In this document: in pieces, positions 1 to 3,000 of the stretch | How positions within the stretch are numbered: position 1 is the stretch's first letter | Layout: each line of letters starts with the position of its first letter | Assembly (NCBI RefSeq): GCF_053078305.1 | Contig: NZ_CP166879.1 | Direction: 5' to 3' (one strand) | Length of the DNA stretch: 64,000 nt | Position numbers: made by a program

Positions 1-3000
1 GAAAAGGATTTTCTCTTTTATGCCAACAACGGCAGCGAGGAGGAAAAAATCGAGGTGTTCGGCTGCGTCCCCATGTTGTCGGACGTGGTGAACATCAGCG
101 CAGGTGAAGCCGGAAAGACCACGAAAAAAATCAAGTTCATGGTCACAAGCCCGGACTTTATCAGCATTGACGGCGTGCCCTACCTGTCAGCCCGTGACAC
201 CCGCGATCTGAAGGGGTGATGCCATGCCGGACGGTCAGACTTCACTCCTGGCAAAACTGATTATCATCGGTGCTGCCATCGGGCTGGGGCGTCTCATGGT
301 GAGCCGCGATCGCATCACAGCCCGTCTGCTTATCGGGCGAATGATTATGGGCTCTGCCGTGGCACCGGTTGCCGCCATTCCGCTGTTTAAATTTCCGGAC
401 ATGCCGGAGCTGGTAGTGGTCGGTCTGGCGTGCGCGCTGGGCATTATGGGCAGCGCCTTTATTGAAGAATGCTTTTGCCGTCTGGCAGACCGCTACCTGA
501 AGCAGAAGGAACGCAGAAATGACCCATAAGCCTTACATTTCGCCTTCCCTGAGCCTGTATCACGCGCAGGCGCATGACGTTCTGCGGATGCTGCCGGAAA
601 ACAGTGTGGACGCGCTCATCACAGACCCGCCATACAGTTCAGGTGCCACACACAAGGCGGGGCGGACATGCCAGGGCAGCCACGCCAAATACATCAACGA
701 TGAAGATCTTCACCGCTTTGAAGGCTTCGAAGGCGAGAACATGGACGCCCGTTCATGGGAATACTGGACGCATCTGTGGATGACACAGGCATGGCGCACG
801 GTACGACCCGGTGGTTACGCCCTGGTCTTCACCGACTGGCGGCAGTTGCCCGCGCTGACGGACGCATTCCAGGCCGCCGGTTTTACCTGGCGGGGGATCG
901 TGGCATGGAACAAGGGACGGGCCTCAAGAACACCGCATACCGGTTATTTTCGTCACCAGTGCGAATATGTGGTCTGGGGCAGTAAAGGCGCGCTGGGCAA
1001 ATCCCCTTCCGGGCCGTTCGACGGCTGCATCACGCACCACACACGCCCACAGGAGAAACAGCACCCGACAGGTAAACCGGAATCGTTGATGGATGAGCTT
1101 GTGCGCGTGTGTGAACCCGGAGGGCTGATCCTCGATCCGTTTATGGGGTCCGGCACCACGGGCGTGGCCGCCCTTCGCCGGGGCTGCCGTTTTACGGGTA
1201 TTGAACTGAACGCCCACTATTTCAGCGTGGCACAGGCGCGCCTTACGGGGACGGAACAGAGGAGTGACTGATGAAACTGAGCGAAAAACAACAACTGTTT
1301 GCCGTCATGATTGCCGATCTCATCCACTGGGCACAGGAGCACGGCTATCGCCTGACCTTCGGCGAGGCATACCGCACGCCGGAGCAGGCCGCACTGAATG
1401 CGAAAAGCGGAAAAGGCATTCGTAACAGCCTTCACACGCTGCGCCTCGCGGTGGACTTCAACCTGTTCATTAACGGCAAATACCAGGCCGACACCGACGC
1501 CTACAGGCCGCTGGGGGAATACTGGGAATCCATCGGCGGCACATGGGGCGGGCGCTTCAGCCGGGCAGACGGCAATCATTTCAGCCTTGAGCACAACGGG
1601 GTGAAATGATGAAACAGCTGGCGGGCTGCCTGGTGATCCTCTTTGCCGCCATGTGGGCGGGCTGGCTGGCCCATGACTGGCATGACGCCAGGGTGGCGCT
1701 TGCCGAACAGGAAGCCATGGAAGCCACGCGACGGGCGGTGACAGAAGCCGGGCAGCAGTCCGCCCGCATACTGGAAAAAAGGCTGGAGGCGTTAAAGGGC
1801 AATGAAATTCACACTGAACGCGTTATTCACACGGAAACCGTCCGCCCGGTATTCCGCAATGTGTGCGCTACTGATGATTACGTCCGGCTGTTCAACGCCC
1901 GTGCTGAAGCCGCTGAACGTACCCTGGCAGGAAAACCAGCTGACGGAATGCCCGAAGACACTGCCGAGACTGGCAGGCCCGACAGGCGCTGATTTTGATG
2001 CGGCACTGCGAACCCTCACGAGCCGCTACACCGAATGCGCCGCCAGGCATAACAGCCTGGTGGAAACCATACGAAACACGGAGAAACTGCAATGACCACG
2101 AAGAGCACCGGCACCATCACCCTGACCGTCGCGGGCGTAACCCTGACCTTTGAGCCGAACAAGACGGCATTTAACAACCTCATCAACGAAATCACGATGA
2201 CCAACAAGATAGCGCCAATGACCACCTATCTTAACCGTATCGTGACCGCTGACTGCCGGGATGCACTGGCCGACCTCATGGATCGTTACCCCGGCTGCGA
2301 GATGCAGATCGCCGAGAAGATTAACGAGGTTTACTCCCCGAAACTGGAGATTGAGTTAAAAAACTGACCGCGCGGGTCGAAAGCATCCGCCGCAATCCCC
2401 TTGAGCAGTATCTGGCATTGCGGCGTCACTACCTCCCCGGAGAGCCGGACGACGAAGAGAGCATCGCCCGTGCCATCTGGCTGGATGAATATTTTGCCCG
2501 TACCCGCGCCAACAAGACCGCTGAAGGTATAGCGATCGCATTTAACGGAAGGTGACATGGCCAGCCAGCTGGATTTCATTATCAATCTGACAGACCAGCT
2601 TACCCGCCCGCTGCGGCAGGTTCAGGAATCCGTGACGGGATTCGCCGAACGCTCGCAGGGCGCGTTCGCGCGTATCGGTGTGGGTGTGGCCGGACTGTGG
2701 GGCGTGGCCGAAGGTATCCGCGCCGCGATGGATCCGGCGTGGGAGATGCAGAAGGCGCTGGGCGAGCTTGAGGCCAAAGGCGTAGGATCGCAGGCGCTGA
2801 CCGCCCTCACCACGCAGGCCATGAAACTGGGGACCGCATTCGGTCAGTCTTCCACGGAGATCATCCGTTCCGCATGGCATATTCGCGGCGCACTGGACGG
2901 GCTGAGCGACGGGGATTTACCCCGTGTGACGGCAGCAACCAGTACCCTGGCCGTGGCTGCCCGCGTCAGCAGCGAAGAGGCGAGCGGCTACCTTGCCGCC

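What the first reader, a model, noticed from the sequence alone, without database searches (positions are those of the whole stretch)
519..1271. Orphan beta-class DNA methyltransferase embedded in the lysis cassette
The DPPY-before-AdoMet-motif order marks a beta-class amino-MTase. No restriction endonuclease partner lies next to it and it sits between the holin-like gene and the endolysin. Phage orphan MTases commonly serve anti-restriction or epigenetic roles; its target cannot be read from sequence.
Basis: partly seen in the sequence, partly recalled or inferred. Interest (0 to 1): 0.35.

Follow-up and report, generated by a model that had tools for sequence, protein, structure and literature searches.

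The report
Orphan phage DNA methyltransferase in lysis cassette
The gene is a real, intact DNA methyltransferase with no restriction partner, inserted between the holin and endolysin genes of a P2-family E. coli prophage, and it is an ordinary, already annotated member of a very large phage methyltransferase family.

Summary
Window 519-1271 (+) is an intact 250-aa ORF with DPPY at residues 36-39 and FMGSG at residues 208-212. It matches Pfam N6_N4_Mtase (97.8 bits, cutoff 26.7). An AlphaFold model (pLDDT 89) matches only solved beta-class DNA amino-methyltransferases.

The gene lies between a holin (224-529) and an M15 endolysin (1271-1609), followed by Rz/Rz1 spanins. Every start codon overlaps the previous gene, and no + strand promoter-like or terminator-like site was found. 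The window starts inside a P2-family prophage between dmsA and serS of E. coli. Neither the prophage nor the window has a restriction gene.

Salmonella phage SI7 has the same cassette without the gene, so it is a clean ~750-bp insertion. Its closest relatives (72-73% identity) sit at the end of E. coli P2-like phages behind a Com translational regulator. A 60% relative sits between a non-homologous holin and lysozyme in a Salmonella Mu-like prophage. Across 54 dereplicated viral homologues, this slot is rare.

Most likely it is made late and methylates progeny phage DNA as anti-restriction. The base is probably N6-adenine, and the target is unknown.

The identical protein is already annotated (WP_000149053.1). 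Interest is low.

The parts
224..529 (+). Holin gene (101 aa). Its last 11 nt overlap the methyltransferase start. Its last ~18 codons differ from the SI7 holin.
   Evidence: Pfam PF04550 Phage_holin_3_2 E=1.2e-19; phrog_175 holin E=5.7e-31; alignment with SI7.
506..510 (+). Shine-Dalgarno-like AAGGA, 8 nt upstream of the methyltransferase ATG and inside the holin coding sequence.
   Evidence: Read directly from the sequence. No significant RNA structure around it (z = -0.74).
519..1271 (+). Orphan beta-class DNA amino-methyltransferase gene (250 aa), matching RefSeq WP_000149053.1 at every position that varies among six alleles.
624..635 (+). Catalytic motif IV, DPPY (aa 36-39).
   Evidence: D36, P37, P38 and Y39 are invariant in 44 homologues.
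1062..1079 (+). Conserved HPTGKP box (aa 182-187) just upstream of the AdoMet motif.
   Evidence: H182, K186 and P187 are invariant in alignment A3. The box aligns with HPTQKP of CcrM and M.BceJIV.
1140..1154 (+). AdoMet-binding motif I, FMGSG (aa 208-212).
   Evidence: F208, G210 and S211 are invariant.
1259..1264 (+). Shine-Dalgarno GAGGAG for the endolysin, encoded in the locus-specific last codons of the methyltransferase, 6 nt before the ATG at 1271.
   Evidence: Read directly from the sequence. Most homologue matches end at about aa 242-246.
470..1270 (+). Segment absent from Salmonella phage SI7. It is the inserted cassette: a new holin 3' tail plus the methyltransferase. The right junction is exactly at the endolysin ATG.
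   Evidence: blastn gives two pieces with a 752-bp difference in span; SI7 annotation; alignment A2.
1271..1609 (+). M15-family peptidase endolysin (112 aa). Its ATG shares one base with the methyltransferase TGA.
   Evidence: PF13539 E=3.4e-10; phrog_1768/465 endolysin.
1606..1992 (+). Rz-like i-spanin. Its start overlaps the endolysin stop by 4 nt (ATGA).
   Evidence: phrog_1152 E=5.5e-31.
1802..2095 (+). Rz1/LysC-like o-spanin ORF, beginning inside Rz in another reading frame and extending past its end.
   Evidence: PF23793 LysC E=0.0012, below the cutoff; phrog_456 E=1.5e-5; NF038368 P2_Rz1 E=0.0012, below the cutoff.

Best explanation
The gene encodes an active, solitary beta-class DNA amino-methyltransferase, most probably making N6-methyladenine. 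It entered the holin-endolysin junction of a P2-family (Irrigatiovirus-like) prophage as a ~750-bp accessory ('moron') insertion. No + strand promoter-like or terminator-like site was found around it, and it is translationally coupled to the holin upstream and the endolysin downstream. It is therefore made only when the Ogr-type late operon fires after induction. At that point it would methylate newly replicated phage genomes before packaging, so the progeny resist restriction in the next host. It would stay silent in the lysogen. Shown here: the enzyme family, intact motifs, the fold, orphan status, the insertion, and the operon structure. Inferred: catalytic activity, late-only expression, adenine as the base, and the anti-restriction purpose. 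The recognition sequence is unknown.
For: Family and fold: PF01555 at 97.8 bits; an AF2 model with pLDDT 89.4 and pTM 0.89 whose 38 best PDB matches are all beta-class DNA amino-methyltransferases or a putative one (TTHA0409): rotifer N4CMT, CcrM, M.BceJIV, M1.HpyAVI, M.PvuII, M.MboIIA, M.RsrI. Intactness: the ORF and both motifs are kept in six E. coli alleles, with pN/pS 0.26; catalytic residues are invariant in 44 homologues. Orphan status. Insertion: SI7, SW5 and SW3 have the holin directly followed by the endolysin. Late polycistron: all genes from the capsid scaffold to the tail fibres are co-oriented and an Ogr/Delta gene is present; no sigma-70-like promoter on either strand and no + strand terminator-like site in 1-2600; start/stop overlaps of 11, 1 and 4 nt. 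Family habit: homologues sit almost always in late or packaging regions. Examples are before the tail sheath, before TerL or the portal of Mu-like phages, at the P2 right end behind Com, and between holin and lysozyme in a Salmonella Mu-like prophage. Com control of the 67-73% relatives (PF10122) parallels Mu com-mom and the Com-linked Hia5-type enzymes, which are late and harmful if expressed (PMC3299994). M.EcoGII, another prophage beta-class enzyme, is silent in the lysogen and deleterious when expressed (PMC5778455). Adenine: DPPY is invariant, and the best sequence matches in the PDB are N6-adenine enzymes.
Against: No methylation or expression data exist for this protein or any close relative that I could find. 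The top Foldseek hit is an N4-cytosine enzyme, so the modified base is not settled. BPP-1 Bpm (51% identity) sits in an early operon next to cro, so late expression is not universal in the family. The promoter scan covers only sigma-70 consensus sites. pN/pS rests on just 19 segregating sites.
Confidence: 0.6

Rival explanations
1. It is an epigenetic regulator expressed in the lysogen. It would methylate the host chromosome or the prophage to alter gene expression or the lysis-lysogeny decision, as Dam and CcrM do.
For: CcrM and M.BceJIV, both regulatory orphan methyltransferases, are among the best sequence and structure matches. The gene is kept intact in all 11 full-length matches among 5,426 complete E. 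coli genomes.
Against: The gene is buried in the late structural and lysis polycistron, with no promoter-like site and an overlapping upstream gene. It scores far below the CcrM equivalog cutoff (86 against 830 bits). Its close relatives are under Com-type late translational control.
Confidence: 0.1
2. It is an N4-cytosine rather than an N6-adenine methyltransferase. The role would still be anti-restriction, but against a different set of enzymes.
For: PF01555 covers both activities. The best Foldseek hit is the rotifer N4-cytosine methyltransferase (E=2.7e-18), and M.PvuII is also matched. Lynch et al. make the same caveat for the homologues in KS5 and KL3 (PMC3091744).
Against: Motif IV is DPPY, invariant in the family. 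From established knowledge, beta-class N4C enzymes typically have SPPY/F. By sequence, the N6A enzymes score better than the N4C enzyme (CcrM 2e-22, M.BceJIV 3e-21, M1.HpyAVI 1e-20, against 5.5e-14).
Confidence: 0.12
3. It is a low-specificity or non-specific adenine hyper-methylase. It would be a functional analogue of Mu Mom, Hia5 and M.EcoGII, toxic to the cell and therefore tied to the lysis genes.
For: The 67-73% identical relatives sit behind Com, as mom and the non-specific Hia5, Hin1523 and Nma1821 do. The enzyme is compact, and its flexible loops (aa 40-80 and 131-150) are highly conserved across hosts from Actinobacteria to Proteobacteria.
Against: Similarity to M.EcoGII is limited to the regions around motifs IV and I, and the ~100-aa M.EcoGII target-recognition insert is absent. 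Hia5-type enzymes are Dam-related, not this family. Com association shows tight control, not the specificity.
Confidence: 0.2
4. It is a decaying passenger gene or a remnant of a lost restriction-modification system, with no current function.
For: No restriction partner is present. The element is rare, found in 11 of 5,426 complete E. coli genomes.
Against: The ORF is intact and all catalytic residues are kept in six alleles, with pN/pS 0.26. The identical protein occurs on 414 contigs. Across 54 dereplicated viral homologues, restriction-type neighbours are the exception, with one neighbour each matching RE_endonuc, ResIII and Mrr_cat.
Confidence: 0.05

Closest known systems
Com-linked N6_N4 methyltransferases of P2-like phages (Escherichia phage Chuche, Burkholderia phage KS5 gp20/gp21, Stenotrophomonas phage Smp131 gp04/gp05)
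   Same: Same protein family: 73% identity to the Chuche gene and 48% to Smp131. All are orphan accessory genes of Peduoviridae.
   Different: Those genes sit in the classical P2 moron slots (right end next to hok and ogr, or the Z/fun region) and are preceded by a Com zinc-ribbon translational regulator. Here there is no Com, and the gene is wedged between holin and endolysin with overlapping start and stop codons.
Salmonella phage SI7 / SW5 / SW3 (Peduoviridae, Irrigatiovirus)
   Same: Same tail-tube, holin, M15 endolysin, Rz and tail-chaperone block at ~74% DNA identity.
   Different: They lack the methyltransferase. The holin overlaps the endolysin directly.
Methyltransferase of a Salmonella Mu-like prophage (P0011)
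   Same: 60% identical, 250 aa, also placed holin-methyltransferase-endolysin with 4-nt overlaps.
   Different: The holin (Phage_holin_2_1) and endolysin (Phage_lysozyme) are not homologous to those here, and no DNA similarity extends outside the ORF. The placement therefore appears independent.
CcrM, M.BceJIV and M1.HpyAVI (solved beta-class N6-adenine methyltransferases)
   Same: Same fold and motif order, including the DPPY and HPTxKP...FxGxG blocks.
   Different: Only 22-25% identity. The recognition sites differ among them (GANTC, GTWWAC, GAGG), so no target can be transferred. The gene scores far below the CcrM and YhdJ equivalog cutoffs.
M.EcoGII (non-specific prophage beta-class adenine methyltransferase)
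   Same: Prophage-borne, beta class, orphan; silent in the lysogen according to Murray et al..
   Different: Similarity is limited to the regions around motifs IV and I. M.EcoGII is 349 aa and has a large extra target-recognition domain.
Bordetella phage BPP-1 Bpm
   Same: 51% identical and annotated as an adenine methylase.
   Different: It lies in the early region directly after cro and before the primase. I could not retrieve a specificity for it.

Membership tests
Beta-class DNA amino-methyltransferase (Pfam N6_N4_Mtase, PF01555) | Catalytic motif IV (D/S-P-P-Y/F) lies N-terminal to AdoMet motif I (FxGxG), with the target-recognition region between them | tested here: met
   DPPY at aa 36-39 and FMGSG at aa 208-212.
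Beta-class DNA amino-methyltransferase (Pfam N6_N4_Mtase, PF01555) | Profile match above the curated threshold | tested here: met
   97.8 bits against a cutoff of 26.7, E=1.2e-27.
Beta-class DNA amino-methyltransferase (Pfam N6_N4_Mtase, PF01555) | Rossmann-type methyltransferase fold superposable on solved beta-class enzymes | tested here: met
   AF2 pLDDT 89.4. Foldseek E from 1e-18 to 1e-12 and TM 0.62-0.73 to N4CMT, CcrM, M.BceJIV, M1.HpyAVI, M.PvuII, M.MboIIA and M.RsrI.
Beta-class DNA amino-methyltransferase (Pfam N6_N4_Mtase, PF01555) | AdoMet-dependent methyl transfer to DNA, acting as a dimer | not testable with these tools
   Needs biochemistry. The dimer requirement is taken from PMC7544214.
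Orphan (solitary) methyltransferase | No cognate restriction endonuclease in the neighbourhood | tested here: met
   None is annotated in the whole prophage. Pfam and PADLOC scans of the unannotated right-end ORFs were negative. The rest of the window is collinear with annotated chromosomal genes, and the two extra segments were scanned with Pfam.
N6-adenine-specific subgroup (EC 2.1.1.72) | Product is m6A rather than m4C | tested here: inconclusive
   DPPY is invariant and the best sequence hits are N6A enzymes. However, the top structural hit is an N4C enzyme.
CcrM (NCBIfam NF050803) / YhdJ (NF008572) equivalogs | Score above the equivalog cutoff | tested here: not met
   86 against 830 bits and 60.7 against 292 bits.
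M.EcoGII-type non-specific adenine methyltransferase | Full-length orthology including the central recognition domain | tested here: not met
   Only two short local alignments around motifs IV and I. M.EcoGII is 349 aa against 250 aa here.
Com-controlled DNA-modification module (Mu com-mom type) | Com zinc-ribbon gene immediately upstream and overlapping the modification gene | tested here: not met
   The upstream gene here is a holin. Com is present in relatives: Chuche, Yersinia and IMG/VR locus L026 (PF10122, E=1.5e-11).
Hia5/Hin1523/Nma1821 non-specific methyltransferases | Dam-related enzyme with motif I before motif IV (DPPY near residue 194) | tested here: not met
   The motif order here is the reverse. 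The family description is from PMC3299994.

The most novel reading that the evidence does not exclude
This enzyme and its Com-linked 72-73% relatives might be low-specificity adenine hyper-methylases that replace Mom functionally in P2-like and Mu-like phages. In this prophage the Com checkpoint would have been swapped for translational coupling to the holin. A toxic, genome-wide methylation burst would then be released only once the cell is committed to lysis. The independent holin-methyltransferase-endolysin arrangement in a Salmonella Mu-like prophage would be a second instance of the same solution.
Probability: 0.2. Interest if true: 0.5.

Novelty: new member of a known kind. Interest (0 to 1): 0.18.

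Why it matters
It matters little on its own. Phage-borne orphan methyltransferases are common, and this protein is already annotated in RefSeq and seen on hundreds of E. coli contigs. Two points have modest value. First, the SI7 comparison gives a base-pair-resolved example of an accessory gene dropped into a holin-endolysin junction while translational coupling is kept on both sides. Second, the same methyltransferase family uses two different routes to strict late expression: Com control, or embedding in the lysis cassette. If the enzyme proved to have broad specificity, it could be a compact 250-aa tool enzyme and would help explain how temperate P2-family phages cross restriction barriers.

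Tried and rejected
- Megablast of 1-2400 against the phage collection found nothing. Only the sensitive blastn search found SI7.
- I guessed accession KF771236 for phage 1720a-02 to obtain M.EcoGII. It was an unrelated Rogunavirus. I took the M.EcoGII sequence from a supplement instead.
- M.EcoGII orthology is rejected. Hia5-family membership is rejected, because that family is Dam-related.
- I could not find a published specificity for BPP-1 Bpm or for the E. coli P2-type Com-linked enzyme. PMC545696 (Smith and Jeddeloh 2005) is not held.
- There is no significant RNA structure at the methyltransferase start that would suggest a Com-like target (z = -0.74).
- I tested whether holin-methyltransferase-endolysin is the family's usual slot. 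Among the neighbours of 54 dereplicated IMG/VR homologues, only 2 upstream genes are holins, and one of those is this same prophage type. No downstream gene is an endolysin. The arrangement is recurrent but rare.
- GC content does not mark the gene as foreign (0.60 against 0.57 for the prophage).
- Rfam found nothing in 1-15000.
- Database names such as 'Modification methylase DpnIIB' or 'adenine-specific' appear to be unverified source annotations and are not evidence of specificity.

Full report
**Observation.** Window 519-1271 (+) is a 250-aa ATG-initiated ORF. It carries DPPY at residues 36-39 and FMGSG at residues 208-212, so the catalytic motif precedes the AdoMet motif. It matches Pfam N6_N4_Mtase at 97.8 bits against a cutoff of 26.7. 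It also matches PHROG 67 'DNA methyltransferase' at E=3.4e-70 and a PADLOC type II methyltransferase model at E=6.9e-62. An AlphaFold2 model built on 44 homologues has mean pLDDT 89.4 and pTM 0.89. Its 38 best PDB matches are all beta-class DNA amino-methyltransferases or a putative one: rotifer N4CMT, CcrM, M.BceJIV, M1.HpyAVI, TTHA0409, M.PvuII, M.MboIIA and M.RsrI.

**Surroundings.** The cassette reads as follows:
- 224-529 is a holin (PF04550).
- 1271-1609 is an M15 peptidase endolysin.
- 1606-1992 is an Rz-like spanin.
- 1802-2095 is an Rz1/LysC-like ORF that begins inside Rz in another reading frame.
- 2092-2367 is a tail assembly chaperone.

The methyltransferase ATG lies 11 nt inside the holin gene, behind an AAGGA at 506-510. 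Its TGA shares a base with the endolysin ATG, and a GAGGAG at 1259-1264 sits in its last codons. The endolysin and Rz overlap by 4 nt. The scan of 1-2600 found no sigma-70-like promoter on either strand and no + strand terminator-like site.

The first 2,400 nt are 97.5-99.5% identical to 11 of 5,426 complete E. coli genomes. In each, RefSeq annotates holin, 'DNA-methyltransferase' and M15 peptidase in that order. In strain N51 the element is a ~33-kb P2-family prophage between dmsA and serS. It has an integrase, Cox, a replication endonuclease, an Ogr/Delta activator, P2-type head genes and an HP1-type tail. All late genes are co-oriented.

No restriction gene is annotated in the prophage. Pfam and PADLOC scans of the unannotated right-end ORFs were negative. 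The rest of the window is collinear with chromosomal genes from serS to rlmC in that genome. The two extra segments hold a pentapeptide-repeat protein, a sulfatase and PTS components. The gene is therefore an orphan.

**It is an insertion.** Sensitive blastn found Salmonella phages SI7, SW5 and SW3 (Peduoviridae, Irrigatiovirus). They match 3-~520 and ~1271-2377 at 74% identity, but their span is 752 bp shorter. In SI7 the holin overlaps the endolysin directly. The pairwise alignment places the right junction exactly at the endolysin ATG (1271). The left junction lies in the last ~18 holin codons, around 465-475. GC content (0.60) does not differ from the prophage average (0.57).

**Family and mobility.** The family is very large. 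A word-seeded search returned 5,927 proteins at E≤1e-20 among the 8,000 candidates scored, and 1,595 phage records hold a match. The nearest relatives (72-73% identity) are in E. coli P2-like phages such as Chuche. There the gene lies between ogr/hok and the integrase and is preceded by a Com zinc-ribbon gene. A Yersinia relative (67%) has hok, Com (PF10122) and the methyltransferase in the same order. Smp131 and Burkholderia phage KS5 show the same Com pairing.

Other relatives occupy other positions:
- the Z/fun slot before the tail sheath;
- just before the large terminase or portal of Mu-like prophages;
- between lysis genes and HNH/terminase;
- the early operon of BPP-1.

A 60% relative in a Salmonella Mu-like prophage lies between a holin and a lysozyme with 4-nt overlaps. 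That holin and endolysin belong to other families, and no DNA similarity extends beyond the ORF.

I then surveyed 80 IMG/VR loci, dereplicated to 54 at 90% identity. Only 2 of the 52 upstream neighbours found are holins, and one of those is this same prophage type. None of the 44 downstream neighbours found is an endolysin. Sheath, integrase, primase, Ogr, Com and Mu portal/F neighbours are more common. The lysis-cassette position is thus one of many slots for a mobile accessory gene. It recurs, but it is rare.

**Integrity.** Six E. coli alleles all keep the full ORF and both motifs. There are 19 segregating sites and pN/pS is 0.26. The window's protein matches WP_000149053.1 at every variable position. 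The exact sequence occurs on 414 contigs, under names such as 'site-specific DNA-methyltransferase'.

**Mechanism.** The shown facts are the enzyme class, intact catalytic residues, the lack of a partner, and embedding in a late polycistron with coupled translation. From these I infer late-only synthesis and methylation of replicated phage DNA before packaging, giving protection in the next host. Three published parallels support this:
- Mu mom is late, harmful and Com-controlled.
- Com-linked Hia5-type enzymes replace Mom (PMC3299994).
- M.EcoGII is a prophage beta-class enzyme that is silent in lysogens and deleterious when expressed (PMC5778455).

These are functional analogies, not memberships. 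Hia5 enzymes are Dam-related. M.EcoGII shares only the regions around motifs IV and I with this protein.

**Base and target.** DPPY is invariant in the family, and the best sequence matches in the PDB are N6-adenine enzymes. From established knowledge, beta-class N4C enzymes usually have SPPY/F. The top structural hit is nevertheless an N4-cytosine enzyme. I rate adenine at about 85%.

The solved relatives are 22-25% identical and recognise different sites (GANTC, GTWWAC, GAGG). No characterised close relative was found in the literature searches. The target therefore remains unknown. Two flexible loops (aa 40-80 and 131-150, pLDDT 61-79) are rich in invariant basic and aromatic residues across the family. 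They are my candidates for DNA contact, which hints at a shared specificity. This last point is inference only.

**Verdict.** The feature is ordinary: an already annotated, uncharacterised member of a well-known kind. The modest additions are the exact insertion map, the absence of Com in contrast to the closest relatives, and the independent second occurrence of the holin-methyltransferase-endolysin order.

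Noticed in passing
window 13261-13401 and 13983-14123 (repeat units about 13102-13514 and 13797-14190): [quoted passage not shown] Strain N51 has three copies. The Com-linked relatives of the methyltransferase also sit next to a hok gene. Rfam found no Sok-like RNA at gathering threshold.
   Followed up: partly
window 1271-1609 compared with 224-1271: Among six E. coli alleles the endolysin has synonymous divergence of 0.11, against 0.012 for the holin and 0.021 for the methyltransferase. The tail chaperone is also high at 0.12. This suggests recombinational mosaicism with a breakpoint at the methyltransferase-endolysin junction.
   Followed up: partly
window 50647-53211: A segment absent from strain N51 carries a 600-aa ORF on the minus strand (50803-52605) with weak pentapeptide-repeat matches.
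   Followed up: partly
window 57854-61367: A second segment absent from N51 encodes a sulfatase (493 aa), a PTS IIB component and an EIIC-GAT permease. The permease is split into two overlapping ORFs (59738-60481 and 60406-61080), which suggests a frameshifted pseudogene.
   Followed up: partly
window 6816-8876: The tail-fibre gene is intact here (686 aa, with tail-collar and fibre-repeat domains). In the 99.5%-related N51 prophage it is annotated as two pseudogene fragments. Window 8605-8738 does not align to N51.
   Followed up: no
window 10726-12399: The last large ORF of the tail module (557 aa) is annotated as hypothetical. It has only a sub-threshold match to the gpV/VgrG OB-fold (PF04717, E=0.0025) and no PADLOC hit.
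   Followed up: partly
L005 3807-5286 (Salmonella Mu-like prophage, GCA_015005415.1): A 60%-identical methyltransferase occupies the same holin-methyltransferase-endolysin position with 4-nt overlaps. The flanking genes are a non-homologous holin (Phage_holin_2_1) and a lysozyme.
   Followed up: yes
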